A stretch of DNA of 51,402 nucleotides. It comes from a virus (lineage: Duplodnaviria > Caudoviricetes). Positions 1 to 51,402 of the stretch are shown piece after piece. Below the pieces are notes generated by a model, which made no database searches, was not told the DNA's origin, and saw nothing but the letters and a program-made list of their open reading frames with translations. The number at the start of each line of letters is the position of its first letter. The first letter of the stretch is position 1. The translations under genes were made by a program, and so were the position numbers. The stretch spans positions 1-51,402 of IMG/VR virus record IMGVR_UViG_3300012096_000008. One strand, written 5' to 3'.

Positions 1-353
1 AAGATGAAAGAATTGGCCTCGATTATCTCTCCACCCGACTCGAAATGATGGTTAAAGAACTAGACTTTGCTTTAATCATAGTGAGTCATGTCAATGACGA
101 AGGACTTACACGCGGAAGTAGAATCATCTCTAAGATTGCTGATATCCGCATTGATCTATTCAGAGATATTACAGCCACAGATCCTATCACTCGGCGTATC
201 ACAAAGCTCGTGGTCTCTAAGAATAGATTTTGTGGTAGAACAGGACCGGCAGGTGAGTTACTCTTTGATCCTGCAACCTACACTCTAACGGAGGATATGG
301 GCTATGCCATACCGGCTAACGATAACCGCAGAATTGAACAATTGGTGTCTTGA
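1..353 (+). CDS. C-terminal part of T7 gp4-like primase/helicase (continues from window end)
   Basis: DnaB-family motifs LIIVSHV, RGS and KNRFCGRTG. The frame reads DERIGLDYLSTRLEMMVK from nt 3, overlapping the peptide encoded at the window end. Confidence 0.92.
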   Translation, partial: DERIGLDYLSTRLEMMVKELDFALIIVSHVNDEGLTRGSRIISKIADIRIDLFRDITATDPITRRITKLVVSKNRFCGRTGPAGELLFDPATYTLTEDMGYAIPANDNRRIEQLVS

Positions 354-2653: not shown

Positions 2654-4588
2654 TTGAACGTAGTCATTGACATAGAATGTAATTCCTTAAACAATCCTAG
2701 CCAGATATGGTTGATTGTATGTAAGGATATAGATACTAATGAATACTATATATTTAGGAATGTACTAGATGAACCAGAACGATTTATTTCTTTCGCTGCT
2801 AGCGTCAAACAATTTATTGGACATAATTATCTTGGTTATGATAAGCCTGTTTTGGAGAGACTTCTACAGATGGAGTTATGTCAGCAGTCCATCGACACGC
2901 TTATTTTATCTAAACTAATAGACTACCCAAGACAAGGACATAGCATTGAGGCTTATGGATTAGAGTTCGGTGAACCTAAGATAAAGTTCAACGATTGGAC
3001 TAAATGGTCTCAAGAGATGGAGGACTACTGTGTCAGGGATGTTGATATATGCCATCGCATATACCTTAAGTTTAGAAGGTATATTACTGATGTTAATCAT
3101 CAGCCAAGCATTCAGCTTGAACAAAGATTCCAACTGGTCGTCAATCTACTTCACGATGTTGGCTTTGCTTTCAATTCTAGTAAGGCATCTAGTCTTCTCC
3201 GACGGATTGAAGACGAGCTTGCAGTTCTCGACAAATCTATACTAGAAGCCTTCCCCCCTAGGTTGAAGTTGATCAGAGAAGTAATGCCGAAGGAGACTAA
3301 GTATGGTACTATTAGCCTTACTTCCATTCCTAAAGAAATGCGTAAAGATATCTCTGATCTCAGTATCAATGCTCCTTTTTGTTACTGTACTTGGTCTGAC
3401 TTCAATCCTAGCTCTCATAAACAAATTATCACTATACTTAATGAAGCTGGCTGGAGACCTATAGAAAAGACTGGCACTCACATAGAGACTGAGAGGGAGC
3501 TAAGCAGATTAAAGTATACTAAAAGAAATACTGAGGTTGACTTAAAACTAAAAGAATTATATATTAAGTTAGAATTAATGAAGAAGGCTGGATGGAAGGT
3601 CAACGAGGCTAACCTCGATACCTTACCAGCAACAGCCCCTCCCCCTGCACGCTTTCTCGCGAAGCGTATCCTGCTTGAGTCCAGACGTCGTACCCTCACT
3701 GAATGGTTATCCCTAGCTCAGCCCGATAACCGTATTCACGGAAAATTCTACGGCATCGGTGCCTGGACTCATCGTATGGCACACCAATCCCCCAATACTG
3801 CAAACATACCTCTTGAGTTTGATGCCAACGGTAAGAAGAAATTATATGGTAAAGAACTCAGAGCATTGTGGTGCGCACCTAAGAACCGATTACTAGTCGG
3901 CGTGGATGCAGAAGGTATCCAGTTGCGCATCTTTGCCCATTACATTGATGATCCAGAGTTTACCCAAGCCCTAGTCAATGGAAAGAAGGAGGACGGCAGT
4001 GATCCACATTCGCTCAACCGAAGAATTCTTGGCTCAGTTTGTAGGACCAGGCAATCAGCCAAACGCTTTGTGTACGCTCTCCTTCTCGGAGCCGGTAATT
4101 CTAAACTCGCTGAGATATTGGAATGTTCCCTACCAGAAGCAGAACTGGCTCTTGACAATCTTCTTACACGATACCAAGGTTTTGCTTATCTCAAAGAGAA
4201 TGTTATACCGAAGGATGCTAGACGAGGCTGGTTTGTCGGCCTCGATGGGCGTAAGGTTACAATCCCAGGAGATACCTACGGGATGCGCAGGCATCTATGT
4301 ATGTCTGGGTACCTACAGAATGGTGAAGCTGTCGTAATGAAGTCAGCCACTCTCAAATGGCACGATAAACTTAATGACTTCGGCGCTCAGTTAGTCAATC
4401 TAGTTCACGATGAATGGCAAACTGAGTGTCCGAACAACATGGAGATAGCACTAAGTATAGCAAGGATGCAATCAGATAGCCTACGTATAGTAGGAGAGGA
4501 ATTAAAACTTAAGTGTCCTCTAGCAGGTTCCTATGGAAATAATTTAGAGGATTACACTATTGCTACTAATTGGAGTAAAACACATTGA
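2654..4588 (+). CDS. polA: T7-like family A DNA polymerase with 3'-5' exonuclease
   Basis: ExoI DIE, ExoII HNYLGYD, ExoIII YCVRDV; motif A DAEGIQLR, motif B RQSAKRFVYALLLG, motif C VHDE. TTG start after AGGA. Confidence 0.97.
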   Translation: MNVVIDIECNSLNNPSQIWLIVCKDIDTNEYYIFRNVLDEPERFISFAASVKQFIGHNYLGYDKPVLERLLQMELCQQSIDTLILSKLIDYPRQGHSIEAYGLEFGEPKIKFNDWTKWSQEMEDYCVRDVDICHRIYLKFRRYITDVNHQPSIQLEQRFQLVVNLLHDVGFAFNSSKASSLLRRIEDELAVLDKSILEAFPPRLKLIREVMPKETKYGTISLTSIPKEMRKDISDLSINAPFCYCTWSDFNPSSHKQIITILNEAGWRPIEKTGTHIETERELSRLKYTKRNTEVDLKLKELYIKLELMKKAGWKVNEANLDTLPATAPPPARFLAKRILLESRRRTLTEWLSLAQPDNRIHGKFYGIGAWTHRMAHQSPNTANIPLEFDANGKKKLYGKELRALWCAPKNRLLVGVDAEGIQLRIFAHYIDDPEFTQALVNGKKEDGSDPHSLNRRILGSVCRTRQSAKRFVYALLLGAGNSKLAEILECSLPEAELALDNLLTRYQGFAYLKENVIPKDARRGWFVGLDGRKVTIPGDTYGMRRHLCMSGYLQNGEAVVMKSATLKWHDKLNDFGAQLVNLVHDEWQTECPNNMEIALSIARMQSDSLRIVGEELKLKCPLAGSYGNNLEDYTIATNWSKTH

Positions 4589-4725
4589 ATACTGAAGCAA
4601 TTGATGAACTCATTCAGTACTTAGATACTGAAATTAAAATGGATCATAAGTATGATCTAGATAGAACTGAGATCGATTTGATTATTGATGCTTTAACATT
4701 CTACAAGGAGATGCAAGTAATATAA
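4585..4725 (+). CDS. small acidic hypothetical protein (46 aa)
   Basis: TTG start overlaps the pol stop (TTGA), and its TAA overlaps the SSB ATG (TAATG). Confidence 0.45.
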   Translation: MNTEAIDELIQYLDTEIKMDHKYDLDRTEIDLIIDALTFYKEMQVI

Positions 4726-5213
4726 TGGTTAAGGGTAAAACAGAATTTAAATATGTACAAGGTAAGGTAGCTTGGTTTAGACCGGATGTTCCTAATAAAT
4801 GGAATAGATACTCTTGCCAATTGCATCCTGATACTAAGAGCTTGGAAACAATTCGGGAGTTACAAGCACAGGGTTTAAAGAATAACTTAAAGAAAGATGA
4901 AGATGGATACTTCATTAACTTCACCAGACCTATAGCTAAGACATTCACATCTGGCAAGACTATAGCCTTCGGTCCAGTAGAAGTGTTTGATAAAGAAGGT
5001 GTTCCTTTTCATGGAGCTGTAGGTAATGGCTCTGATGTTACTTTGAAACTTGAAATCTACTCCTTCGAGTTTGAAGGAGTCAAAGGCATCGGCGCTCGTT
5101 GGGTTAGTGCTCGGATAGATAACTTAGTACCTTTCAGTTCTGATACAGATATGACTGAGAAAGAGTCAGAGGCTGCTTCAGGATTACTAGACAGACCAGA
5201 GCAGTGGAGTTAA
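4725..5213 (+). CDS. ssDNA-binding protein (T7 gp2.5-like)
   Basis: Position after pol, G...W..PD and VGNGS.V motifs, and an acidic C-terminal tail with a near-terminal aromatic residue. Confidence 0.75.
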   Translation: MVKGKTEFKYVQGKVAWFRPDVPNKWNRYSCQLHPDTKSLETIRELQAQGLKNNLKKDEDGYFINFTRPIAKTFTSGKTIAFGPVEVFDKEGVPFHGAVGNGSDVTLKLEIYSFEFEGVKGIGARWVSARIDNLVPFSSDTDMTEKESEAASGLLDRPEQWS

Positions 5214-5762
5214 TCTGCTGCTCAGCGGTGCAGTGGCGCGCCAGCGAAGAACTGCACCCTGCTCCCCGTTAGGGAGAGCCTGTGGGATGCGCCTCCGCGA
5301 CAGGCAGAAACATATGCAGTGTGAACCCTTATCGCTCAGCGGACACCCCACCCTCCGCACCACCTTCAGGAAGTGGGCTGCAGTGGCCGCCTTGTATAGC
5401 TAGGCGGGAATCCTAAGCGTTATCCGAGTTCCCCAAGCGTCTGGCTGAGTATCCAGAGGAGGTGACTCCAAAACTTCTGCTCGCAATAACCGTGTAAGAC
5501 TGGTGTGACTCCAGTTCAGGTCTACTATCTATTAGTGGTTAAAATGCCTGACCTAGAAGTGGGAAACGGTGAGCAAAATAGCATGGTACTACTCTGAGCG
5601 CACCAACATGGGGTCTCATTAACCTCGAATTGTTGGAGATCAAATAGATGTCGCGCATGCTAGGGTCGGTAGTGACCGACGCTATAACCTCTATAGAGGG
5701 CGCGTATGAGGGTAAAGGTCTTGGCAACCTAAGGATTTGGAAAGCCTAATGATCTGAAGCGG

Positions 5763-5846
5763 TATGAGGTGGCGGAATAAAGGAAATCTTCTCTTAACCA
5801 ACTCTTGTTGGTGACACCGGTTGGTTCGATCCCAACCCTCCGAGCA
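5763..5846 (+). pseudogene. degenerate tRNA-like element (long variable-arm type)
   Basis: 5' GAGG-TGGCGGAAT, hairpin CCAAC-tctt-GTTGG, T-arm GTTGG-TTCGATC-CCAAC, then CCTC able to pair with GAGG. D-stem and anticodon stem are not intact. Confidence 0.35.
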
Positions 5847-5971
5847 CTAGGCGGAGACTGGCGACTAGAGCGTTGAGCCCAAAGGAAGCTAAGTGCTGGT
5901 TCGATCCCAGCTGATCTGAAGGTAGAACAGAGCTTCTGATTACTTTGACGTAGTAGCTATGAAAGATTTCT

Positions 5972-6027
5972 GAGGTACGCAGTGGATTGCAACCCCACCT
6001 ATGCTGGTTCGAGTCCAGCCCGATTAT
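5972..6027 (+). pseudogene. 3' two-thirds of a tRNA-Cys(GCA)-like sequence
   Basis: GGTACGCA, anticodon arm GTGGA-TTGCAAC-CCCAC, CTAT, then T-arm GCTGG-TTCGAGT-CCAGC. No adjacent 5' acceptor strand. Confidence 0.55.
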
Positions 6028-6717
6028 CGTAATGTAGTAGGATCATGATAAAAGCGAGACCCGAACCGGGAACACCATCGGAGATTGGTGTAGCGTTAAT
6101 CCTAAGTGTTCACCCCTCAACTACACTGACGGAACTGTTTCCACTGTTAGAGCAAGCTGCATAACTTGAACTCAGCCCAGACTACCCTGTGGAGCTGGTC
6201 GCGTAGAAGCAGCATCTAGAGTACTGCACAGCGGACACCGTTAACCTCCGTGCCTTCGGGTAGTATGTGCGAAGAGCGGAAGCCATAGATGTGGATCGGC
6301 GGCTGTTAACCGTAGGATCATATAGACTGCCTACATTGGCAGGGATGCGATTGGCGCGTAAAGATCACCGTGAGCCTGCATCAAGCAACAGACTACTATG
6401 ACTAGGCGCAACGCTAAACTGAATCAATTAAGCATGCGCTGAATGGGTAGCTAAGACGCCTCTCACTGTTCCTTACATGAATGGGGTGAGCCGCAAGCCG
6501 GTCTAGCAAGTCCATGTAAATTCCTATTGCTTGATTTCACCTTGCGTGAAATCAGCATCGAAGACAGACCCATGATGGCCATCTGTCTCTACAAGACGTA
6601 GGAGGTGCCGATGCGTGACTTTCACCAAAGTGCCCAGCCTCCTTAATATTCAAGAAGAAGGGTAACGGAGTGGGCCTTGTTAGAGCCCACTCCTGAACCA
6701 CGGAAGGAGTAACTACC

Positions 6718-7047
6718 ATGAGTAAGTACAGCGAATTGCTGGCTATTATGGAGTTCGCCAAGAATACCAGCAAGGATAAAGAACCTAAACGTTGGCGTAA
6801 GAAGAAGGAACCTGACTTCATAAATCAGTTAGTAGACTATCAGGATAAGGTAGAGAAGTTTAACAAATGGTTGAAGACGCAGGAGAAAGAAGATAAGAAG
6901 AAAGATCACAGTCTATTTAAGGATTGGACTGTAGGACAGAAGACCGCTTTCTTTACTATACTCGGGCCACCAATGGGTATAGCTTACATATTCTGTATCG
7001 TCTTATTGGTACGAGGCTTGGCTACATTCGTAGTAGGAGGTCATTGA
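6718..7047 (+). CDS. hypothetical protein with C-terminal transmembrane helix
   Basis: AAGGAG RBS, Lys-rich coil followed by a hydrophobic segment. Confidence 0.8.
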   Translation: MSKYSELLAIMEFAKNTSKDKEPKRWRKKKEPDFINQLVDYQDKVEKFNKWLKTQEKEDKKKDHSLFKDWTVGQKTAFFTILGPPMGIAYIFCIVLLVRGLATFVVGGH

Positions 7048-7259
7048 TGTCAACGCAAAGAGAACGTTGGGAAAGTTGGACTGCGCCTGAATCTCTTGAA
7101 GACTGCGTTAAGCTGTTCTTCGAAATTCTTGACATCACTGAAACATCAGACAGTGGAGTAGATTTTAAACCTAACTGTATTAGGAGTTGTCGTGTATGGG
7201 ACACTCACCGTCTCGAAAGAATTATCATTAAAATGAAAGAGTTAGCTATACGTGTCTAA
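7047..7259 (+). CDS. hypothetical protein (MSTQRERW...)
   Basis: TGATG coupling to the upstream stop. The track start at 6924 is probably too long. Confidence 0.65.
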   Translation: MSTQRERWESWTAPESLEDCVKLFFEILDITETSDSGVDFKPNCIRSCRVWDTHRLERIIIKMKELAIRV

Positions 7260-8115
7260 TATACAAACATTAATACCAGATATATACAAACTAGTAGGAG
7301 GCCAAGATAACTGGCTCAGAGAAGATATTGCAACCCAATTTACGGCTGAACTCACTCTTAAACTCCAAGAATCCCTCGGAGAAAGAGCAAGCCCTACTCT
7401 TCGTCTCTCAGGTATGGGCTTACGCTGCCCGTGTAGCCTGTGGCACTCGATACATACCCCACTGGATGCAGAGCCACTCCCACCTTGGGCCAGAATCAAA
7501 TACACTTACGGACACATACTTGAAAGCCTTGTGATCGCCATGGCTAAGGCAGCCGGGCATGAAGTAACAGGAGAACAAGATGCTGTATCTGTTGATGGGA
7601 TCGTCGGCCATAGAGATTGTGTCATTGACGGGTGTATCGTTGATGTTAAATCTACTACTAGCCGTGGCTTCATCAAGTTCAAAGAAGGTTCAATCGCATC
7701 CGATGATACTTTTGGTTACTTGGATCAACTTGATGGGTATCTTGTGGGCTCCCTTCACGACCCACTTGTTCGGGATAAATATCGGGCTTACTTATTAGCA
7801 ATAGATAAACAATTAGGACATATGTGTTTATATGAGCATACTGCGCGCGAGAAAAGCATTAGAGAAAGAATTCGAGATTATAGAGATGTCGTCGCTCTTG
7901 ATAGAGCTCCGCCATGCACTTGCGAAGAAGTTCCCGAAGGAAAATCCGGAAACATTAGACTGGGCGTTAGAGCAAGCTATAATGCGTTTAAGTACCAGTG
8001 TCACCCACAGCTTCGAACCTTCCTCTATTCAACTGGACCAGTCTACTTAACTAAAGTGGTGAGGAAGCCTGATGTAATAGAGATAGATAGATATGGTAAG
8101 ATAGTTTACAATTAG
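7252..8115 (+). CDS. PD-(D/E)XK (Cas4-like) exonuclease
   Basis: LRLS.MG..C, YGH..E, GHRDCVIDG..VDVKS and Q...Y motifs typical of SIO1-like phage exonucleases. Confidence 0.85.
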   Translation: MSNIQTLIPDIYKLVGGQDNWLREDIATQFTAELTLKLQESLGERASPTLRLSGMGLRCPCSLWHSIHTPLDAEPLPPWARIKYTYGHILESLVIAMAKAAGHEVTGEQDAVSVDGIVGHRDCVIDGCIVDVKSTTSRGFIKFKEGSIASDDTFGYLDQLDGYLVGSLHDPLVRDKYRAYLLAIDKQLGHMCLYEHTAREKSIRERIRDYRDVVALDRAPPCTCEEVPEGKSGNIRLGVRASYNAFKYQCHPQLRTFLYSTGPVYLTKVVRKPDVIEIDRYGKIVYN

Positions 8116-8212: not shown

Positions 8213-8545
8213 ATGACTAGAAATAAGTTTGAGGCTAGAATCTATGCCAGCCTCAAAGCCAAGAAGATTAGGTTTAAATATGAGTCCGAGAAAATCCCCT
8301 ACCTTATCTCAGGACACTACACTCCTGATTTCATTGTCACCACACGTAGCGGAAAGATTTATGTTGAGACTAAGGGCCACTTTAGACCTGAAGCTAAGCG
8401 AAAGATGGTTGCGGTCAAGAAGCTTAACCCCAAACTTGATATCAGAATACTCTTCTACTCATACAATAAATCTAATGAGAAGTGGTGCATCAAGAATGGT
8501 TTTCCCTTTGCTATAGGAGATATACCGGAGGATTGGTTAAGCTGA
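8213..8545 (+). CDS. endonuclease I / Holliday junction resolvase (T7 gp3-like)
   Basis: R..FE, YE, YTPDF, ETKG, DIR..F and WC.KNGF motifs. Confidence 0.92.
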   Translation: MTRNKFEARIYASLKAKKIRFKYESEKIPYLISGHYTPDFIVTTRSGKIYVETKGHFRPEAKRKMVAVKKLNPKLDIRILFYSYNKSNEKWCIKNGFPFAIGDIPEDWLS

Positions 8546-35271: not shown

Positions 35272-37815
35272 CTATTTCCACCGTATGCTTGCTGCTTTTG
35301 AAGCTATAGCAGATCTTTGCTTGCTGGTTAGGGATTTGGCCCTGGCTTGACCGCCGAGGCTAGAAAGCACAGCAGCAGCTTTCTTAATATCTTCAGAATG
35401 GACTTTATGTCCCTCTGCAATCTGTTCTATACCCTCTAACCATCTCCACTTCTTACCACCACCATGAACTTCTGCTGGAGGAGGAGGTGGAGTAACATAT
35501 AGTACAAGATTGGGAAGATTATCTTGATCCGGTATGAGTATTACCGGTTGTTTAGTCTTACCCCAATCGGTCCAAGAAAAGATACCTAATGGAGTACTTA
35601 ACTGAGTGGGATTAAGTACTACAATATTCGGAAGATTACTTTGATCCGAAACTATCGGTCTAACTGGATAATAGTAGGTCCAATCAGATTTATTAAATGG
35701 TATTGTATTAGTATTTAGATTTATATTCAGAGCCATGCCTGAAGGAGGCTGAGGTACTGAAGGTAAGAATTGAGTCTTAGAGAAATCTTGTGTATAGAAG
35801 GGATTAACAACTACTGCAAGGGTAGTCAGTAAAAGGTTCGTCGGATCGACCGGACCAGCCTTGGCCCGACTTGGAAAAAAAAAGGCTGATGTCGTCCAAT
35901 CAAAGGGTCCGAATGGTATCGGATTAGTATAAAGATTTAGGTTTACCGATTGTACATCAGGCTTTGCAAGCGTGGAGACAAAAGGCTTAGAAAAGTCCTG
36001 AATAAAGAAAGGATTAACTATTACTACAGGAGTACTAAGTAAAGCTACATTCGGAAAATCATTTTGACTTAAAGGTCTAGGTTTATGCGGGAAAGGCACA
36101 TACCAATCAAATGGCCCGAATGGTATATTATTACTTAGAACTAAGTTGGGAAGATTGTTCTGATTAGAAACAATAGACTTAATCGAATAAGCAATTCCGA
36201 AATCTTGTAAATAGAAAGGATTACCTACTACTACTGGATTTAGAAGAACAATATTAGGATATTGCGTAAAAGGTACCGACGGAATATCGAAACCTTTAGA
36301 CCAATCAAACTGAGCGAATGGAATTGGATTGGTGTATATATTTACATTATACGCTTGTTGATCAGGCTTTGCCGGTCCAAGAGCGAATGGCTTAGAGAAA
36401 TCCTGTGTAGAGAAAGGAGTGGAGAAATTCTGTAGTACTAAATTAGGATATTGCGGAGAAGGCAACCAATCCGGTAATATATGAGTTGTGGAATAATCCG
36501 AAGGAAGAAACGGATTTGCGACTACAACTGTGTTAAGTAATACTATATTCGGATATTGAGGGGGCGGTAACCAATCATATAATGAATTTAATGGAAAATT
36601 AAACTCATTAAGATTAGGTATCGGATTTTTGTAGATACCTATATTATACGGAGTAGCCTGAGGAGGAGAAGAGACTACTGTTTTAGGAAATGTTACAGAT
36701 TGACTGACACTAAATGGTATTGGATTGGGATAGAAATTTATATCAGTGTGTGGTTGATCAGGTTGATATCGTATAGTCGGATGAATTCTAGGCCAATCTG
36801 TTTGAGAGAATGGAATAGGATTATTGAATAAATTTAAATTTAGGGAAGATTGTTGGGCAGGAAGGCCTGGTATATCGAATATACGGCCAAAATCTTGAGT
36901 GTGGAAAGGATTATTACCTACCGGAGTATAGGTTAGAACAAGGACACCTTGAGCCCCCAACCCTGCTGTACTACCAGCGCCACCGCCGCCACCATAGCTT
37001 CCACCGTTACCGCCAACGCCTTGAATCCCAGTTCCGGTAAAACCGCCACCACCTGCACCACCGCCCCCTGGTCCAGCCGCCCCAACAAGAAATCCGCTTC
37101 CACTTACAGCGCCAGTCCAAACCGAATCTTGGCTGCCCGCTCCGCCCACGCCGCCATTGGCCGTTACGGTACCCTTAGAACCGCCGCCGCCGCCGCCGCC
37201 ACTTGATCCGTCACCGCCGGCAGCGCCGCTTGTGCCTGTGCCTGCAGTACCGCCACCAGCCGATAGACGATTGTTGCCGCCTGTGCCACCATCGGTAAGA
37301 TTGGCATTGGCGTCGCTGCCAGCGCTGCCTCCATTAGCTCCGCCTCCCCCACCACCACCGAAGGTAAGGCTTACATTTGATCCGCCAGCGCCGCCTACGC
37401 CATTCGGCCCGCCAGCGCCTCCGCCACCGGCATTAGCGTTACCGGGAGCAGTGCCTCCAGTGCCGCCATTATTATTGCCATTAGCACCAGTGCCACCAGT
37501 TCCTCCAGCGCCGCCAGTAGCACCACCATTGCCAAATCCGCCACCTACAGCGATCACTGTATTGGTATTAAATGTCGTATTGGTTCCAGCTACACCATTG
37601 CCGCCACCAGCACCGATTACATAATTAAAGGCTGTAGTGCCGGGAGTGGCTACGGAAAAGTTATTGCTTCTGCGATATTCACCGCCGCCGCCGCCATCAC
37701 CCGTAGAGGCGTGACCGCCACCACCGGCACCAATAGCCTCAACCGAATTATTAGCGTTATTCCAATCGGAAGGGCTGGTAGAAGTCGTGCCAGATATGAT
37801 GACAATGACTGTCAC
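35272..37815 (-). CDS. Gly-rich plus NPF-repeat protein with basic C-terminal module (probable virion appendage)
   Basis: N-terminal ~300 aa Gly-rich domain, ~30-35-aa repeats NP(I)PF...D[FW]S, and C-terminal GGQARAKSLT..QRS.IA.KAA..RW. Confidence 0.75.
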   Translation of the reverse strand: MTVIVIISGTTSTSPSDWNNANNSVEAIGAGGGGHASTGDGGGGGEYRRSNNFSVATPGTTAFNYVIGAGGGNGVAGTNTTFNTNTVIAVGGGFGNGGATGGAGGTGGTGANGNNNGGTGGTAPGNANAGGGGAGGPNGVGGAGGSNVSLTFGGGGGGGANGGSAGSDANANLTDGGTGGNNRLSAGGGTAGTGTSGAAGGDGSSGGGGGGGSKGTVTANGGVGGAGSQDSVWTGAVSGSGFLVGAAGPGGGGAGGGGFTGTGIQGVGGNGGSYGGGGGAGSTAGLGAQGVLVLTYTPVGNNPFHTQDFGRIFDIPGLPAQQSSLNLNLFNNPIPFSQTDWPRIHPTIRYQPDQPHTDINFYPNPIPFSVSQSVTFPKTVVSSPPQATPYNIGIYKNPIPNLNEFNFPLNSLYDWLPPPQYPNIVLLNTVVVANPFLPSDYSTTHILPDWLPSPQYPNLVLQNFSTPFSTQDFSKPFALGPAKPDQQAYNVNIYTNPIPFAQFDWSKGFDIPSVPFTQYPNIVLLNPVVVGNPFYLQDFGIAYSIKSIVSNQNNLPNLVLSNNIPFGPFDWYVPFPHKPRPLSQNDFPNVALLSTPVVIVNPFFIQDFSKPFVSTLAKPDVQSVNLNLYTNPIPFGPFDWTTSAFFFPSRAKAGPVDPTNLLLTTLAVVVNPFYTQDFSKTQFLPSVPQPPSGMALNINLNTNTIPFNKSDWTYYYPVRPIVSDQSNLPNIVVLNPTQLSTPLGIFSWTDWGKTKQPVILIPDQDNLPNLVLYVTPPPPPAEVHGGGKKWRWLEGIEQIAEGHKVHSEDIKKAAAVLSSLGGQARAKSLTSKQRSAIASKAASIRWK

Positions 37816-38015
37816 GTCAGCATTTTACCAGTTCGACGTCGGACAATGGCATTGATTTCTGGTATCCCAATGGGACCGGTCTGAGTTTCTATGTGGAGGA
37901 TTTCATCGAATGCCACGTTAGAATGTGCAGCAAGTTGATAATCTTCATCAGGGATAATGAGACGTCGAACCTGTCCTGTAGTTATATCATAGACAATGCC
38001 AATTTTAGTGCGCAC
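37812..38015 (-). CDS. hypothetical protein
   Basis: Probable GTG start at 38015 within track ORF 37812..38075, coupled to the next gene. Confidence 0.6.
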   Translation of the reverse strand: MRTKIGIVYDITTGQVRRLIIPDEDYQLAAHSNVAFDEILHIETQTGPIGIPEINAIVRRRTGKMLT

Positions 38016-45544: not shown

Positions 45545-45760
45545 ATGCAAGTCCAATTCGTGTTTCGTGAATACAACCATTTCGGTAGATGCACACTGGA
45601 ATGGGAAGGTATGACCGAGGATATGGCTACCTACTATGAAAAATACTTTCTGTTCATATCGAACAGAGATAGAGATACAGTACGATTGACTGCTGATACA
45701 GCACTAGAGAATGGTATTGAAATACACCGTTCCTATGTCACACTCAGGAGGGCTAGATGA
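45545..45760 (+). CDS. hypothetical protein
   Basis: GAGGGG RBS before ATG 45545, with ATGA coupling to the NYN gene. Confidence 0.65.
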   Translation: MQVQFVFREYNHFGRCTLEWEGMTEDMATYYEKYFLFISNRDRDTVRLTADTALENGIEIHRSYVTLRRAR

Positions 45761-46320
45761 AACGTATTGGTATCTTCATTGATGGTTCTAATCTATACAT
45801 GTCTGCTAAGGCATTAGGATTTAGGATCGACTTCACTAAATTAAAGCAATATTACCAGACTCAAGGTGATGTTGCTCAAGCTATGTACTTCACTGCTCTA
45901 CCTCCTAAAGATGTTGAATCTCCATTACGTAGGATGGTGGATTATGTTGAGTTCAATGGTTTCACTGTAATACAAAAAGAGACCAAGGAATATCTAGACG
46001 TAGACAATAAGAAAAGATTGAAAGGGAATATGGATGTGGAGATTGCTGTCTACATGGGAGAAGTTGCTAATAGCCTCACTGATATCATTCTGTTTAGCGG
46101 GGACGGTGACTTTCGCTGTCTTATTGAGTCATGTCAGCGTGCTGGCGTTCATTGTACTGTTGTGTCTGCTCGTAGTCTTGTGGCTGATGTTCTAAGACGT
46201 CAGGCTAATGAATATGTTGACTTGTCTACTCTTAAAGATAAGTTAATGCATGAGGAAGCCAAACAACAAGAAGTTGAAGAAAAGCGTAGTAAACGCTTTA
46301 ACTTCTTGGATAAAGGTTAA
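45757..46320 (+). CDS. NYN-domain (LabA/DUF88, PIN-like) ribonuclease
   Basis: IFIDGSNL, KGNMDVEIAV, LFSGDGDF and LRRQA...VDL. All acidic catalytic positions are present. Confidence 0.93.
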   Translation: MKRIGIFIDGSNLYMSAKALGFRIDFTKLKQYYQTQGDVAQAMYFTALPPKDVESPLRRMVDYVEFNGFTVIQKETKEYLDVDNKKRLKGNMDVEIAVYMGEVANSLTDIILFSGDGDFRCLIESCQRAGVHCTVVSARSLVADVLRRQANEYVDLSTLKDKLMHEEAKQQEVEEKRSKRFNFLDKG

Positions 46321-49530: not shown

Positions 49531-50166
49531 ATGTTTTGGAAAACACCGTACAAGTTTGACTTATCTGAAACAAGATTTACCCCAGACATCGCAAGACTAG
49601 AATTATCGCAATTCCAATTGCTATTCGTCTGTGATGATCTGATGCGAGCCGGTAAGAATTATAATATAATAGCTGACAGCTCGGCCTCAGTAGCCAGAGG
49701 TTTCACTCTTCATGGTTATAACTTCTATAAGAAGAGAACTGATGGAATTCCTGTAGTAATGGCTGCTAAGCAAGCAGATAACAGATATAGTTTCTCTTGT
49801 TTGAAGATTAAGGGAGAAATTCACGCAGTTGAGTCAAAAGCCTTCATAAAGCTTGACACCCACTACCTGAATGGAGTACAATACCGTCGAATTAGGACTA
49901 AGATCCTGTATCCCACTCGCCAGCATGGCGTAGTCGTTAACCACGATAATGAAGGTAAGCTCTTACCTCCTGCCCTGCAAGGCAATAAACATTTCCTCCT
50001 CCCAGAACGGGTAGATATTATCTCGGCTTGGATGTACATTGGTGCGTCTAACTATTGGAATGATCTACTTGATGGGGGGTTTGCTTTTGAACCTGTACGT
50101 ATTGTAGAACCGAAAGAACAGAAGAATTGGTTAATCAAATATTACCACTGGCAAAACCAACCATAA
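49531..50166 (+). CDS. gamma-glutamylcyclotransferase (AIG2/GGACT)-like protein, degenerate
   Basis: LFV...L.R...N, I.GE...V, LD....G..Y.R and AW.Y pattern. AGGAG RBS. Confidence 0.7.
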   Translation: MFWKTPYKFDLSETRFTPDIARLELSQFQLLFVCDDLMRAGKNYNIIADSSASVARGFTLHGYNFYKKRTDGIPVVMAAKQADNRYSFSCLKIKGEIHAVESKAFIKLDTHYLNGVQYRRIRTKILYPTRQHGVVVNHDNEGKLLPPALQGNKHFLLPERVDIISAWMYIGASNYWNDLLDGGFAFEPVRIVEPKEQKNWLIKYYHWQNQP

Positions 50167-51402
50167 TTGAACGTCATATTGCTTGTGATGATTGCGGATC
50201 ATCCGATGCTAAATGTACTTACTCAGATGGTCACAGCTATTGTTTCAGTTGTTTAACTTATACTCCACCTTTAGATAAACAGGAATTTAGTTATGAATTT
50301 CTCGGAACAAGAGGAATTGCTAAAGAAGTTTTTCAATTCTTTGACACAAAGACAAAAATTGATGTTAATGGAAAGCCGACTTCTATTGGATTTCCCTACC
50401 CTAACGGTAGTTTTAAAATAAGAACTTTAGATAAGAAAGGTTTCTATTCTCAAGGTGATATAAGCAAAGCTGGTTTATTTGGTCGTAATAAGTTTGCGGC
50501 TAGTAGTCACAAGACCGTGACTATAACAGAGGGAGAGTTGGATGCTCTATCGCTTTATCAGGTTGTACGCAGTCCTGTCGTCTCTGTTCACAGCGCTGCT
50601 AGTGCTGGAACTGACGTTAGCCTGGACCGATCCTGGGTTAATTCGTTCGAAAGAATTCTACTCGCATTTGATGGTGATGAAGCAGGACGTGAAGCAGCAT
50701 CTAAAGTTGCAAAGCTGTTTGATTACAACAAAGTTTTCATGGTGTCGTTCCCAGGCGGAACGCGTAAAGACGCCAATGACTACCTTCGAAACGGTGAACG
50801 GGACGAACTAGCAACTCTGTGGTACAACGCCAAGAAGTTTCTTCCTGAAACTATCGTCTCTTCGTTTCATGAGTTCGATAAGATCATTAAGGAAAAGCCT
50901 AAGGCTGGTGTACTATATCCGTTCCCTACCTTGAACTATATGACCTACGGTATCCGCACCGGTGAGTCCGTGTTAATCACGGCTCAAGAAGGTGTCGGTA
51001 AAACGGAGATGATGCATGCAATCGAACATCAACTTCTTAAAGAAACATTGGATAATATTGGCGCTATCTTTCTTGAGGAACCGAAGCGACGACACCTTCA
51101 GGCTATTGCAGGTATTCATCTTGGACGTCCTGCGCACCTACCCGATAGTGGTGTCACAGATACGGAAATTTTCCAAGCCGTACAAGACGTGGTTAGGATG
51201 GACGAGCGCCTTCACATCTATTCTCATTTTGGATCAGATGATCCTGAGGTCATTCTTGATACCATTAGATTTTTGGTATCCGCACGTGGTTGCCGTTACA
51301 TTCTTCTCGACCACATCACTATGGTTGTTAGTGGTCTCGGAGGCAAAGACGAAAGAACTACTCTCGATTATCTTTCGACGCGACTCGAAATGATGGTCAA
51401 AG
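50127..51402 (+). CDS. T7 gp4-like primase/helicase, N-terminal part (missing from the ORF track because it runs off the end)
   Basis: Zinc finger H..C..CGSSDA...DGH.YCFSC, TOPRIM ITEGELDA and FDGDEAG, KDAND, Walker A GVGKT, LDHI. Start uncertain (TTG 50127 or CTG 50148). Confidence 0.95.
   Translation, partial: MVNQILPLAKPTIIERHIACDDCGSSDAKCTYSDGHSYCFSCLTYTPPLDKQEFSYEFLGTRGIAKEVFQFFDTKTKIDVNGKPTSIGFPYPNGSFKIRTLDKKGFYSQGDISKAGLFGRNKFAASSHKTVTITEGELDALSLYQVVRSPVVSVHSAASAGTDVSLDRSWVNSFERILLAFDGDEAGREAASKVAKLFDYNKVFMVSFPGGTRKDANDYLRNGERDELATLWYNAKKFLPETIVSSFHEFDKIIKEKPKAGVLYPFPTLNYMTYGIRTGESVLITAQEGVGKTEMMHAIEHQLLKETLDNIGAIFLEEPKRRHLQAIAGIHLGRPAHLPDSGVTDTEIFQAVQDVVRMDERLHIYSHFGSDDPEVILDTIRFLVSARGCRYILLDHITMVVSGLGGKDERTTLDYLSTRLEMMVK

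What the first reader, a model, noticed from the sequence alone, without database searches (positions are those of the whole stretch)
5401..6019. Array of at least five T-loop arms without complete tRNAs (possible tRNA-elbow mimics)
Seen: three canonical T-arms, GTTGG-TTCGATC-CCAAC (5820-5836), GCTGG-TTCGATC-CCAGC (5895-5911) and GCTGG-TTCGAGT-CCAGC (6003-6019). There are also two G-C-closed 7-nt T-loop variants, TAGG-CGGGAAT-CCTA (5401-5415) and ACTGG-TGTGACT-CCAGT (5499-5515). None sits in an intact cloverleaf, yet the stems are unbroken. Known: T-loops build the tRNA elbow, and in T-box RNAs, RNase P and the L1 stalk they recognise it; bacterial Y RNAs are tRNA mimics. Inference: the arms are retained as tertiary modules, processing signals or decoys for tRNA-targeting defence nucleases, rather than being decayed tRNA genes.
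Basis: partly seen in the sequence, partly recalled or inferred. Interest (0 to 1): 0.72.

Follow-up and report, generated by a model that had tools for sequence, protein, structure and literature searches.

The report
Giant phage RNA with tRNA-like modules
The three orphan T-arms are neither tRNA genes nor their wrecks but conserved, rewired tRNA look-alike modules at the centre of a previously undescribed 1.4-kb structured non-coding RNA carried by a family of uncultured soil phages.

Summary
The three canonical T-arms (5820-5836, 5895-5911, 6003-6019) are real and non-random: 3 motif hits against 0.09 expected. No tRNA is called.

They lie in an ORF-free, GC-rich block, about 5316-6693 on the + strand, between an SSB-like gene and an exonuclease gene of a complete 51-kb podophage. 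Seven close relatives align over about 1-1.3 kb at 61-73% identity. The consensus fold has 257 pairs, 90% of cells paired. 122 pairs show compensatory changes, against 27-33 when partners are slid.

T-arm 1 is followed at once by a loop-capped acceptor-like stem and a tRNA-Leu-type D strand. This T-AS-D order is that of the YrlA Y-RNA tRNA mimic. A covariance model finds it in 34 of 74 related sources, 98 of 99 hits on the + strand. Rfam's best sub-threshold hit in relatives is YrlA. No Ro60 gene was found in 6 of 6 complete genomes.

T-arm 3 keeps normal tRNA order, with the other modules nested inside it.

Verdict: a new large structured phage RNA built around tRNA-derived elbow modules. Its function is inferred, not shown.

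The parts
5316..6693 (+). Whole conserved structured non-coding RNA block (about 1.38 kb). True transcript ends are unknown.
   Evidence: ORF-free. GC about 0.50 against about 0.40 around it. Aligned to 7 relatives at 61-73% identity. 257 consensus pairs, 122 with compensatory changes. GU/UG cells 202 against AC/CA 56, which points to a + strand RNA.
5316..5405 (+). 5' domain: helices 5316-5320/5377-5381, 5338-5342/5355-5359 and 5360-5365/5370-5376, plus hairpin 5389-5395/5399-5405.
   Evidence: helices 2, 4, 5 and 6 (84.8-100% paired, 3-5 compensatory pairs each). Coordinates.
5417..5601 (+). Domain closed by long-range helices 5417-5430/5590-5601 and 5448-5453/5577-5582.
   Evidence: helices 8, 9 and 11. 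helix 2 (85% paired; present in 4 of 8 sequences).
5710..5722 (+). 5' strand of the helix that closes the tRNA-like domain. It pairs with 6052-6062.
   Evidence: helices 22/23: 100% paired, mostly invariant, with one G-C to A-U compensatory change in 2 of 8 sequences. Coordinates.
5749..5769 (+). 5' strands of the outer helix (5749-5755 with 6040-6046) and of the acceptor-like stem of module 3 (5759-5763 with 6026-6030; 5768-5769 with 6020-6021). The conserved GAA at 5756-5758 faces 6031-6039.
   Evidence: helix 1 is 98.6% paired with 5 of 7 pairs compensatory; helix 2 is 94% paired with 4 of 5 compensatory; helix 3 is only 60% paired (weak).
5770..5783 (+). D-arm-like strand after the acceptor-like 5' strand. 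Its first 10-11 nt are identical to the D-arm start of the phage family's own true tRNA-Leu.
   Evidence: compared with the tRNA-Leu(UAA) at L081 279-361.
5798..5811 (+). Extra hairpin just 5' of T-arm 1, in the position of a long variable arm. Found in the window only.
   Evidence: an insertion absent from the other 9 aligned sequences.
5819..5837 (+). T-arm 1 (6-bp stem, loop TTCGATC).
   Evidence: helix 29: 100% paired, 5 of 6 pairs compensatory. Present in 8 of 10 close-clade sequences.
5838..5856 (+). Capped acceptor-like stem (AS1) directly after T-arm 1: 5838-5842 pairs with 5852-5856.
   Evidence: helix 30: 100% paired, 3 of 5 pairs compensatory. Family-wide statistics.
5859..5873 (+). 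D-like strand after AS1. The start is invariant in the close clade; the window's copy is degenerate in the loop.
   Evidence: Covariance-model hit 5808-5888, 44.6 bits (this sequence was in the training set).
5895..5911 (+). T-arm 2.
   Evidence: helix 6: 82.5% paired, 3 compensatory pairs. Module absent in 2 of 10 close-clade sequences (L010, L006).
5912..5946 (+). Structured element after T-arm 2 (a second capped stem or a pseudoknot). Pairing not resolved.
   Evidence: Searches give different solutions. By eye, 5912-5921 can pair with 5933-5942 in the window (9 of 10 positions).
5981..6000 (+). Anticodon-arm-like hairpin 3 nt before T-arm 3. The loop is of the conserved (G/U)UGNA(A/U) type, not a conserved anticodon loop.
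   Evidence: helix 34: 83% paired, 5 of 6 pairs compensatory; such a hairpin precedes 11 of 89 T-arms against 0.56% of random positions.
6003..6019 (+). T-arm 3.
   Evidence: helix 8: 100% paired, 3 compensatory pairs. Present in 10 of 10 close-clade sequences.
6020..6062 (+). 3' strands of the acceptor-like stem, outer helix and closing helix, with the invariant loop 6031-6039 and the invariant stretch 6047-6062.
   Evidence: The core motif occurs in 9 IMG/VR contigs and in 0 bacterial or archaeal genomes.
6100..6439 (+). 3' domains: 6100-6109/6123-6132; 6140-6144/6189-6193; 6195-6206/6393-6405 enclosing 6212-6217/6288-6292, 6225-6235/6247-6271, 6294-6319, 6327-6342 and 6344-6347/6379-6382; then 6406-6415/6431-6439.
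   Evidence: helices 37-51. Coordinates.
6639..6709 (+). Anti-Shine-Dalgarno-like stretch (6639-6644), stable hairpin (6667-6677/6682-6693) and the Shine-Dalgarno sequence (6704-6709) of the next ORF (6718-7047).
   Evidence: helix 53 is 91.7% paired without covariation; helix 55 is 93.3% paired with 8 of 11 pairs compensatory. The motif ACCTCCYTA occurs in 13 of 68 related intervals on the + strand and 1 on the - strand; shuffle mean 0.81.

Best explanation
The three T-arms belong to three tRNA-derived modules of tRNA-Leu type. These modules form the central domain (about 5710-6062) of one large, highly structured non-coding RNA of about 1.4 kb (about 5316-6693, + strand). The RNA lies in the replication module of a family of uncultured ~50-kb soil podophages.

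Shown:
- The block is conserved, ORF-free and full of compensatory base-pair changes.
- Module 1 is wired T-arm, then a loop-capped acceptor-like stem, then a D-arm-like strand. This is the circularly permuted order of the tRNA-like domain of YrlA Y RNAs.
- Module 3 keeps the normal tRNA order: acceptor-like 5' strand, D-like strand, anticodon-like hairpin, T-arm, acceptor-like 3' strand. Modules 1 and 2 are nested inside it.
- The acceptor-like stems are capped or continue into other helices, so there is no free CCA end.

Inferred:
- Each module folds into a tRNA-like L whose elbow is made by the T-loop docking on the D-like GG strand.
- The RNA therefore displays two or three tRNA elbows on a rigid scaffold. 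These either engage a factor that recognises tRNA elbows (host or phage) or serve as corner pieces of the RNA's own architecture.
- The 3' end carries an anti-Shine-Dalgarno element that could tie the RNA's fold to translation of the next ORF.

The modules are not translatable tRNAs and not pseudogenes.
For: Non-randomness and no tRNA.

Conservation: 61-73% nucleotide identity over about 1-1.3 kb in the close relatives (alignment).

Structure of the whole block:
- 257 consensus pairs with 90.0% of cells paired.
- 122 pairs with changes on both sides, against 27-33 in six slid controls and 60.8 in shuffles (0 of 500 shuffles reach the observed value).
- 202 GU/UG cells against 56 AC/CA cells, which fits a + strand RNA.

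tRNA-like domain: the outer helix is 98.6% paired with 5 of 7 pairs compensatory. The acceptor-like helix is 94% paired with 4 of 5 compensatory. T-arms 1 and 3 are 91.5-100% paired.

Family-wide module:
- 35 of 89 T-arms in 68 unique SSB-to-exonuclease intervals have TGGYG within 45 nt downstream, against 9.8% of random windows.
- 20 of the 28 intervening segments of 10 nt or more close with at least 5 terminal pairs, against 4.4% of shuffles. Their sequences all differ.
- Model R1 gives 99 hits at E<=1 in 74 sources, 98 of them on the + strand. 33 hits have E<=1e-5, and 13 of those were not in the training set.
- On those 33 hits, 89.9% of cells are paired and the covariation score is 0.531 against 0.172 (0 of 500 shuffles).

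YrlA likeness: the order T, AS, D is described in PMC4201824 (passages). Rfam's YrlA tRNA-like domain, including the closing stem, is the top sub-threshold hit in L068 (29.4 bits, E 0.025) and also hits L052 (22.4 bits).

tRNA-Leu origin: the D-like strand starts exactly like the D-arm of the family's own true tRNA-Leu in L081. In IMG/VR the same D-arm pattern after a T-loop is an ordinary 'tRNA-X then tRNA-Leu' pair in 97 of 118 hits.

Synteny: most of the 68 intervals hold an ORF-free stretch with 1-4 T-arms. An outgroup with a 300-nt gap (L100) has a single tRNA-like gene there.
Against: - No expression data: no RNA run holds the stretch, so transcript ends, processing and even transcription are unproven.
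- Promoter-like and terminator-like sites are not enriched: 4 against 4.2 expected, and 1 against 1.9 expected.
- The minimum free energy of 5700-6080 alone is no better than shuffles (z = 0.19).
- The consensus structure was derived from the same 8 sequences on which the pairs were counted, which inflates paired cells. The slid controls and the compensatory counts offset this only in part.
- No well-supported helix ties the 5' domain, the tRNA-like domain and the 3' domains together, so they could be several adjacent RNAs.
- Beyond the close clade (7 intervals; 10 contigs by core motif) the intervals share no blastn similarity. Homology of the whole RNA across the family is therefore not shown. 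Only the modules and the synteny are shared.
- The window's own D-like strand 2 is degenerate, and the window itself gives no YrlA hit at E<=10.
- The D-loop to T-loop docking and any partner are inference only.
Confidence: 0.6

Rival explanations
1. Decayed tRNA genes: a former three-tRNA cluster rotting in an intergenic region, with the T-arms surviving by chance.
For: Lax ARAGORN settings draw degenerate cloverleaves at 5753-5845 and 5839-5920. The D-like strands are of tRNA-Leu type. A distant relative has a real tRNA in the same space, and an outgroup has a tRNA-like gene there.
Against: The whole 1.4 kb is conserved and covaries. The canonical intramolecular acceptor pairing is not maintained in relatives. 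The non-tRNA pairing (strand after T-arm 1 with the strand before the D-like element) covaries instead and is found family-wide. T-arm stems change by compensatory substitutions, which means selection.
Confidence: 0.03
2. Functional but non-canonical tRNAs: permuted or split tRNA genes that are cut in the capping loops, and perhaps re-joined, to give decoding tRNAs.
For: The order 3' half before 5' half is that of permuted tRNA genes (recalled). M. smegmatis YrlA is cleaved by RNase P in its acceptor-like stem-loop and receives CCA (PMC4201824, passage). The window's hairpin 5981-6000 happens to have a 7-nt loop with U at position 33 and a purine at position 37.
Against: The capping loops are only 3-5 nt in most close relatives. 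The anticodon-like loop is a (G/U)UGNA(A/U) hexaloop of varying length in relatives, so no anticodon is conserved. The acceptor-like stem of module 3 runs on into further helices without free ends. There is no ARAGORN or Rfam tRNA call.
Confidence: 0.05
3. A true Y RNA (or several) that binds the host's Ro60/Rsr, as YrlA does, with the large RNA as its precursor or carrier.
For: Same T-AS-D wiring. YrlA is the best sub-threshold Rfam hit in two relatives. YrlA RNAs are known from phages (PMC4201824, abstract and passages).
Against: The scores are far below the YrlA cut-off (29.4 and 22.4 against 69 bits) and cover only the tRNA-like part, model positions 23-89 of 114. The Ro-binding motif GNCGAAN0-1G occurs 0 times in 5290-6700, with 0.8 expected. 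There is no TROVE gene in 6 of 6 complete genomes of the family. The host is unknown, so a host Ro60 cannot be excluded.
Confidence: 0.08
4. Mainly a giant cis-acting leader: the structured block is the 5' untranslated region that controls translation of the small ORF at 6718-7047, with the tRNA-like modules as a sensor (for example of a tRNA-binding factor).
For: An anti-SD-like stretch, a stable hairpin and then the SD and start codon close the block (helices 53 and 55). ACCTCCYTA is found on the + strand in 13 of 68 related intervals against a mean of 0.81 in shuffles, usually upstream of an ORF start.
Against: The anti-SD/SD pairing shows no covariation; both strands are constrained anyway. 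1.3 kb is far more than any known leader needs. The downstream ORF of the window differs from that of its relatives. This reading is compatible with the best explanation rather than exclusive of it.
Confidence: 0.12
5. A self-assembling RNA-only particle like GOLLD or ROOL, with the tRNA-like modules displayed or enclosed.
For: GOLLD and ROOL are large, ornate, phage-borne RNAs, often next to tRNA islands. tRNAs sometimes sit in the GOLLD linker (PMC12286853, passages). The present RNA is likewise large, ornate, phage-borne and tRNA-related.
Against: There is no similarity to the Rfam GOLLD or ROOL models at E<=10. Nothing here tests oligomerisation.
Confidence: 0.1

Closest known systems
YrlA (Y RNA-like A, Rfam RF02553), the tRNA-like domain of bacterial and phage Y RNAs
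   Same: The order is T-arm, stem-loop in the place of the acceptor stem, then D-arm, closed by a connector helix. The T-loop has the tRNA consensus and the D-loop carries GG. There is no chargeable end. YrlA is the best sub-threshold Rfam hit in relatives L068 and L052 (paper passages).
   Different: The modules here are embedded, two or three at a time, in a 1.4-kb RNA instead of a 100-150-nt RNA. There is no Ro-binding stem or GNCGAAN0-1G motif. There is no neighbouring or phage-encoded Ro60. Scores are far below the family cut-off. One module has the unpermuted order.
GOLLD and ROOL large ornate phage RNAs
   Same: They are phage-encoded, very large, densely structured and of unknown function. 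They are associated with tRNA genes, and tRNAs are sometimes embedded in GOLLD (PMC12286853 passages).
   Different: No sequence or structure similarity was detectable. Here the tRNA-derived parts are rewired, non-functional as tRNAs and an integral part of the conserved core. The RNA is larger (about 1.4 kb). The setting is the replication module of T7-like-replication soil podophages.
tmRNA tRNA-like domain, including two-piece (permuted) tmRNA genes
   Same: A T-arm with a D-loop-like strand lacking a full D-stem. In permuted genes the T-arm and 3' acceptor strand come before the 5' acceptor strand (recalled).
   Different: There is no ARAGORN or Rfam tmRNA call at normal thresholds. The capping loops are too short to be an excised spacer. 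There is no CCA-type end. The only tag-like frame is not conserved as a peptide, while its bases covary as RNA helices.
Ordinary phage tRNA arrays and dimeric tRNAs
   Same: The T-loop and the tRNA-Leu-type D-arm sequences are the same. A tandem tRNA pair is the likely evolutionary source.
   Different: In 97 of 118 IMG/VR pattern hits both flanking tRNAs are called by ARAGORN, and in 94 of those the segment between them does not pair with itself. In the present family no tRNA is called and the segment closes into a covarying stem.

Membership tests
tRNA (RF00005 / ARAGORN) | Complete cloverleaf scoring above the family cut-off. | tested here: not met
   ARAGORN finds 0 genes. Rfam at gathering thresholds finds 0. 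The best match is 16.9 bits against 29.
tRNA (RF00005 / ARAGORN) | 5' and 3' ends of one unit pair to form a 7-bp acceptor stem with a free 3' end. | tested here: not met
   The strand after T-arm 1 pairs with the following strand (capped stem). The stem of module 3 continues into further helices.
tRNA (RF00005 / ARAGORN) | T-arm with the GTTCRANYC consensus, and a D-loop with GG. | tested here: met
YrlA (RF02553) | tRNA-like domain wired T-arm, acceptor-like stem-loop, D-arm. | tested here: met
   Definition taken from passages of PMC4201824.
YrlA (RF02553) | Score at or above the Rfam gathering cut-off (69 bits). | tested here: not met
   The window gives no hit at E<=10. Relatives score 29.4 and 22.4 bits.
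YrlA (RF02553) | Ro60-binding helix with the GNCGAAN0-1G motif. | tested here: not met
   0 occurrences in 5290-6700, with 0.8 expected. The Rfam hits cover only model positions 23-89.
YrlA (RF02553) | Encoded next to a Ro60 (TROVE) gene. | tested here: not met
   PF05731 is found in 0 of 6 complete phage genomes of the family. The host genome is unknown.
tmRNA | Detected by the ARAGORN or Rfam tmRNA models, with a conserved tag reading frame. | tested here: not met
   Only -ps80 gives 'tmRNAp' calls. The tag-like frame varies as a peptide while its bases covary as helices.
GOLLD / ROOL | Match to the Rfam covariance models. | tested here: not met
   No hit at E<=10 in 4900-7000, and none at gathering thresholds in the window or in 26 related or control loci.
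GOLLD / ROOL | Homo-oligomeric nanocage. | not testable with these tools
   Needs cryo-EM or native gels.
RNase P RNA | Rfam models, and a P4 helix between CR-I-like and CR-V-like strands. | tested here: not met
   No Rfam hit. The P4-like pairing 5716-5721/6635-6640 has 8 of 42 cells broken and 1 compensatory pair. The alternative partner 6052-6062 is 100% paired with a compensatory change.

The most novel reading that the evidence does not exclude
This is a new class of giant phage RNA. Two or three tRNA-Leu-derived L-shapes are fused, partly circularly permuted and nested within one another. They form a covalently linked, multivalent tRNA-elbow display on a 1.4-kb scaffold. During infection it would capture or mislead machinery that reads tRNA elbows, such as RNase P, T-box leaders, the ribosomal E-site/L1 region, modification enzymes or tRNA-directed defence nucleases. 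Alternatively it would assemble into a higher-order RNA particle. In either case it would be the first case of tRNA mimicry built into an ornate large RNA.
Probability: 0.3. Interest if true: 0.85.

Novelty: new variant of a known kind. Interest (0 to 1): 0.78.

Why it matters
Large 'ornate' RNAs of phages (GOLLD, ROOL) and tRNA-mimicking Y RNAs are two unsolved puzzles that have so far been treated separately. This RNA joins them. It is a 1.4-kb, richly covarying phage RNA whose conserved heart is made of rewired tRNA parts in the YrlA topology, yet without any Ro60 gene.

It gives a concrete, sizeable target for cryo-EM, which suits an RNA of this size. It also offers a way to ask what tRNA elbows are used for outside translation.

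It shows how tandem tRNA genes can be exapted into new RNA architecture. An outgroup has a single tRNA-like gene at the locus, and one relative has a real tRNA there.

It also warns annotators: 'orphan T-arms' that tRNA finders skip can mark large unannotated RNAs. In this phage family, most of the 68 distinct intervals examined hold such an ORF-free stretch.

Tried and rejected
Similar DNA in cultured phages: blastn of 5200-6560 against 50,697 phage records found nothing. The DNA polymerase is at most 41% identical to that of any cultured phage, the nearest being Roseobacter and Lentibacter podophages. No annotated reference exists.

tmRNA: rejected (see the membership test).

RNase P RNA: CR-I-like and CR-V-like strings caught my eye, but there is no Rfam hit and the P4-like pairing is not supported.

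Group I or II intron, riboswitch or any other Rfam family: no hit.

Expression: no RNA holder is listed for the stretch.

Single-sequence folding energy of 5700-6080: z = 0.19, uninformative.

Promoter and terminator scans: no enrichment.

Host search through the core motif: 0 hits in genome contigs.

NYN-domain RNase as a dedicated partner: it is present in the window and in 3 of 5 tested genomes, all close clade. It is absent from 2 genomes that have the modules and from 5 others. It is therefore not linked to the RNA.

T7-type RNA polymerase (PF00940): no hit in the window, but the control rang nowhere, so this is uninformative.

Homology of the whole RNA across the family: all-against-all blastn of the 68 intervals joins only 7 into the window's clade and leaves most as singletons. 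I therefore claim only module-level and syntenic conservation outside the close clade.

Pairing after T-arm 2: two fold runs disagree. Left unresolved.

Connector ('anticodon-stem') helices of module 1 in the close clade: read by eye only, because the alignment is not in register there. Given as tentative in the full report.

Literature: four full-text searches found no description of this RNA. The term 'T-large' that I recalled had 0 occurrences. The supplementary tables of PMC10690425 list about 8,500 short candidate RNAs from IMG/VR.
Full report
THE OBSERVATION

The sequence at 5820-5836, 5895-5911 and 6003-6019 reads as three textbook T-arms. The motif GGTTCGANYCC occurs three times in the 51,402-base window, all in this 200-base stretch and all on the + strand. 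The shuffle mean is 0.09, and 0 of 100 shuffles reach three.

No tRNA is called:
- ARAGORN at default settings finds no gene in the window.
- Rfam at gathering thresholds finds nothing.
- The Rfam tRNA model finds nothing in the record.
- At E<=10 the best tRNA match is 16.9 bits against a cut-off of 29.
- Only a very lax ARAGORN threshold draws degenerate cloverleaves.

Of the two 'T-loop variants', 5401-5415 is not supported: 53.6% of cells paired in 8 relatives, and it overlaps a conserved, covarying hairpin at 5389-5405. The hairpin 5499-5515 is real but present in only 4 of 8 relatives, inside a variable insert.

CONTEXT

The window is a whole IMG/VR virus record, rated 100% complete. The + strand carries a T7-like replication module:
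- primase/helicase, wrapping around the record ends
- uracil-DNA glycosylase, 555-1364
- family A DNA polymerase, 2654-4588
- an SSB-like ORF, 4725-5213
- a Cas4-like exonuclease, 7252-8115
- endonuclease I, 8213-8545

The structural genes lie on the - strand.

Between the SSB-like gene and a small ORF at 6718 lie 1.5 kb without ORFs, at about 50% GC in a 40% GC genome. No cultured phage is close: the polymerase is at most 41% identical, and there is no DNA match.

RELATIVES

Searches with the exonuclease and polymerase proteins brought 110 loci from IMG/VR, mostly ~50-kb soil phages. They give 68 distinct SSB-to-exonuclease intervals.

Most intervals hold an ORF-free stretch with one to four canonical T-arms, 89 in all. 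ARAGORN called only 8 tRNAs in all 110 loci, and four of these lie elsewhere, upstream of the polymerase.

Seven intervals form the window's close clade. By a core motif, ten contigs including the window belong to it. These align to the window over about 1-1.3 kb at 61-73% identity.

A LARGE STRUCTURED RNA

RNAalifold on the 8-sequence alignment gives 257 pairs in 55 helices. Counted on that alignment:
- 90.0% of cells form standard pairs (shuffled 78.6%; slid controls 37-40%).
- 122 pairs carry changes on both sides (slid 27-33; shuffled 60.8).
- 0 of 500 shuffles reach any of the five measures.

The structure was derived from the same sequences, which favours it. The fourfold excess of compensatory pairs over the slid controls is hard to explain otherwise.

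GU/UG cells outnumber AC/CA cells 202 to 56, as expected for a + strand transcript. The block runs from about 5316 to the hairpin at 6667-6693.

Points against, or left open:
- The folding energy of 5700-6080 alone is not better than shuffles (z = 0.19).
- No promoter or terminator enrichment was found.
- No RNA-seq run holds the sequence, so the transcript itself is inferred.
- No well-supported helix links the 5' domain, the central domain and the 3' domains. 'One RNA' rests on contiguity, shared strand and co-conservation.

ANATOMY OF THE tRNA-LIKE DOMAIN (5710-6062)

Three nested helices close the domain:
- 5710-5722 with 6052-6062: 100% paired, with one G-C to A-U compensatory change.
- 5749-5755 with 6040-6046: 98.6% paired, 5 of 7 pairs compensatory.
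- 5759-5763 with 6026-6030: 94% paired, 4 of 5 pairs compensatory.

Between the last two lies an invariant asymmetric loop, GAA opposite a 9-nt strand containing AGUA. From memory this resembles a sarcin-ricin or loop E motif; I did not test it.

The innermost helix continues, through a few non-standard positions, to 5768-5769 with 6020-6021. That contact is weak (60% paired) and abuts T-arm 3.

Read from 5759, module 3 has the normal tRNA order:
- an acceptor-like 5' strand
- a U, then a D-like strand (5770-5783)
- much later, an anticodon-arm-like hairpin (5981-6000; 83% paired, 5 of 6 pairs compensatory)
- three bases
- T-arm 3
- the acceptor-like 3' strand

The first 10-11 nt of the D-like strand equal the D-arm start of the family's own true tRNA-Leu(UAA), which is found in L081 (61.9 bits).

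The hairpin's loop is not a conserved anticodon loop. It is a (G/U)UGNA(A/U) hexaloop. Such a hairpin sits directly 5' of 11 of 89 T-arms, against 0.56% of random positions, also in distant relatives.

Modules 1 and 2 are nested inside module 3.

T-arm 1 (100% paired, 5 of 6 pairs compensatory) is followed without a gap by a capped stem, 5838-5842 with 5852-5856 (100% paired, 3 of 5 compensatory). Then comes an invariant strand that begins like the tRNA-Leu D-arm.

The canonical tRNA pairing, between the strand before the D-like element of the same unit and the strand after its T-arm, is possible in the window at 5 of 7 positions. By my reading of the alignment it is not kept in L003 or L010, whereas the capped stem covaries.

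A short connector helix seems to join the strand 5' of T-arm 1 to the strand 3' of the D-like element. In the window this is 5791-5794 with 5867-5870, with different complementary tetramers in L004, L003, L010 and L036. I read this by eye only, because the alignment is out of register there. It is tentative.

The window alone has an extra hairpin (5798-5811) in the position of a long variable arm.

T-arm 2 (82.5% paired) is followed by a structured element whose pairing I could not settle. Module 2 is absent in L010 and L006, so the number of modules is two or three.

THE MODULE IS FAMILY-WIDE

Outside the close clade the intervals have diverged beyond blastn recognition, and the close clade's sequence motifs are missing. 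The wiring is still there:
- 35 of 89 T-arms have TGGYG within 45 nt downstream, against 9.8% of random windows.
- Of the 28 intervening segments of at least 10 nt, 20 close with at least 5 terminal pairs, against 4.4% of shuffles. Their sequences are all different.
- By eye, several distant relatives show clear connector helices of 7-8 bp around the module: L084, L076 and L096.

A covariance model of T-arm, capped stem and D-stem was built from 20 such modules (R1). Its results:
- 99 matches at E<=1 in 74 sources, 98 of them on the + strand.
- 34 of 74 sources have a match at E<=1e-3.
- 33 matches reach E<=1e-5, of which 13 were not in the training set.
- On those 33, 89.9% of cells pair. All 5 pairs of the capped stem and 4 of 5 T-stem pairs show compensatory changes. 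The covariation score is 0.531 against 0.172 in shuffles (0 of 500) and 0.05-0.13 when slid. That alignment was fitted to the model, which favours it.

In the window the model hits 5808-5888 (44.6 bits; a training sequence) and, weakly, 5991-6057 (22.9 bits).

COMPARISON WITH KNOWN FAMILIES

The order T-arm, stem-loop in the place of the acceptor stem, then D-arm is what Chen et al. describe for YrlA Y RNAs. Those RNAs are modified by TruB and DusA, and in M. smegmatis YrlA is cut by RNase P (PMC4201824, passages read).

An E-value scan of five distant relatives against all of Rfam gave YrlA as the best hit. In L068 it scores 29.4 bits (E 0.025) over model positions 23-89, which comprise the connector, T-arm, capped stem and D-arm. 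In L052 it scores 22.4 bits. The family cut-off is 69 bits.

Membership fails on every other defining feature:
- The window itself has no YrlA hit at E<=10.
- The Ro-binding motif is absent.
- No TROVE gene is present in 6 of 6 complete genomes.

So the module works like the YrlA tRNA-like domain, but the RNA is not a YrlA.

GOLLD and ROOL are the nearest analogues for the whole: large, ornate, phage-borne, next to tRNA islands, with tRNAs sometimes inside GOLLD (PMC12286853, passages). There is no model match to them. The tmRNA and RNase P readings were examined and rejected (see Tried and rejected).

ORIGIN

A pattern of a T-loop followed by the tRNA-Leu-type D-arm was scanned across IMG/VR. 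The scan stopped at 118 hits. Sorting them with ARAGORN:
- 97 are two adjacent tRNAs called by ARAGORN, and in 94 of these the segment between them does not pair with itself.
- 11 have no tRNA call.
- 6 of those 11 close into a stem of at least 5 bp. Three of the six come from this phage family.

The module therefore looks like the middle of a tandem tRNA pair that has been kept while the outer halves were replaced.

At the same locus an outgroup phage, whose gap is only about 300 nt, has a single tRNA-like gene with a 6-nt anticodon loop (L100, 39.5 bits). One relative has a plausible tRNA-Ile (L043, 46 bits). This supports a tRNA origin of the locus.

THE 3' END

The block ends with an anti-Shine-Dalgarno-like stretch (6639-6644), a stable covarying hairpin (6667-6693; 8 of 11 pairs compensatory) and the Shine-Dalgarno sequence of the ORF at 6718.

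ACCTCCYTA occurs on the + strand in 13 of 68 intervals, against 1 on the - strand and a mean of 0.81 in shuffles. It mostly lies shortly before an ORF start. A link between the RNA's fold and translation of the next gene is plausible but untested.

HOW IT MOST LIKELY WORKS

Shown: a conserved, covarying, + strand-oriented structure with tRNA-derived modules that have no free acceptor end and no conserved anticodon.

Inferred:
- Each module folds as a tRNA-like L with a T-loop/D-loop elbow.
- The RNA presents two or three such elbows.

I put about 0.9 on 'conserved structured RNA with tRNA-like modules'. I put about 0.35 on 'the elbows are there to be recognised by a tRNA-elbow reader'. The main alternative is that they are architectural corner pieces, possibly of a higher-order assembly.

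NOVELTY AND SCORE

I found no description in four literature searches. There was no Rfam match in the window or in 26 related or control loci.

I rate it a new variant of known kinds, namely large ornate phage RNAs and tRNA-mimicking Y-RNA modules. Interest 0.78.

Noticed in passing
window 45757-46320 (+): ORF with an NYN-domain (PIN-like RNase) match, E 4e-24. It is present in three close-clade genomes but absent from two genomes that also carry the tRNA-like modules, so it is not tied to the RNA.
   Followed up: partly
window 35272-37815 (-), especially 36900-37815: The N-terminal ~300 residues of an 847-aa structural-region protein are extremely glycine-rich. This causes a local GC peak (0.57 in 37001-38000). 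No tandem DNA repeat and no Pfam or PHROG match.
   Followed up: partly
window 49531-50166 (+): ORF with a weak AIG2-like gamma-glutamyl cyclotransferase (GGACT) match, 23.5 bits against a cut-off of 22.8.
   Followed up: no
window 50127-51401 and 3-353 (+): The primase/helicase gene runs off the end of the record and continues at its start, so the record is a circular permutation of the genome.
   Followed up: no
L100 8692-8765: An outgroup phage has only about 300 nt between the SSB-like and exonuclease genes. That gap holds one tRNA-like gene with a 6-nt anticodon loop (Rfam 39.5 bits over model positions 5-66).
   Followed up: partly
L203 234-288; L221 5192-5244; L135 3214-3266: Unrelated large viral contigs also carry a T-arm, a self-pairing 7-9-bp capped stem and a tRNA-Leu-type D-arm without an ARAGORN tRNA call. 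In L203 and L221 these lie inside long arrays of true tRNAs. They may be further YrlA-like mimics or fused tRNA remnants.
   Followed up: partly
L081 325-441: Directly after a true tRNA-Leu(UAA), the module model R1 scores 25.9 bits. The tRNA's T-arm seems to be followed by another capped stem and a D-like strand.
   Followed up: no
window 5724-5746: A hairpin whose stem covaries (GTC/GAC, GCC/GGC and GGC/GCC types) lies within a short frame that lax ARAGORN settings read as a tmRNA tag. The peptide is not conserved.
   Followed up: partly
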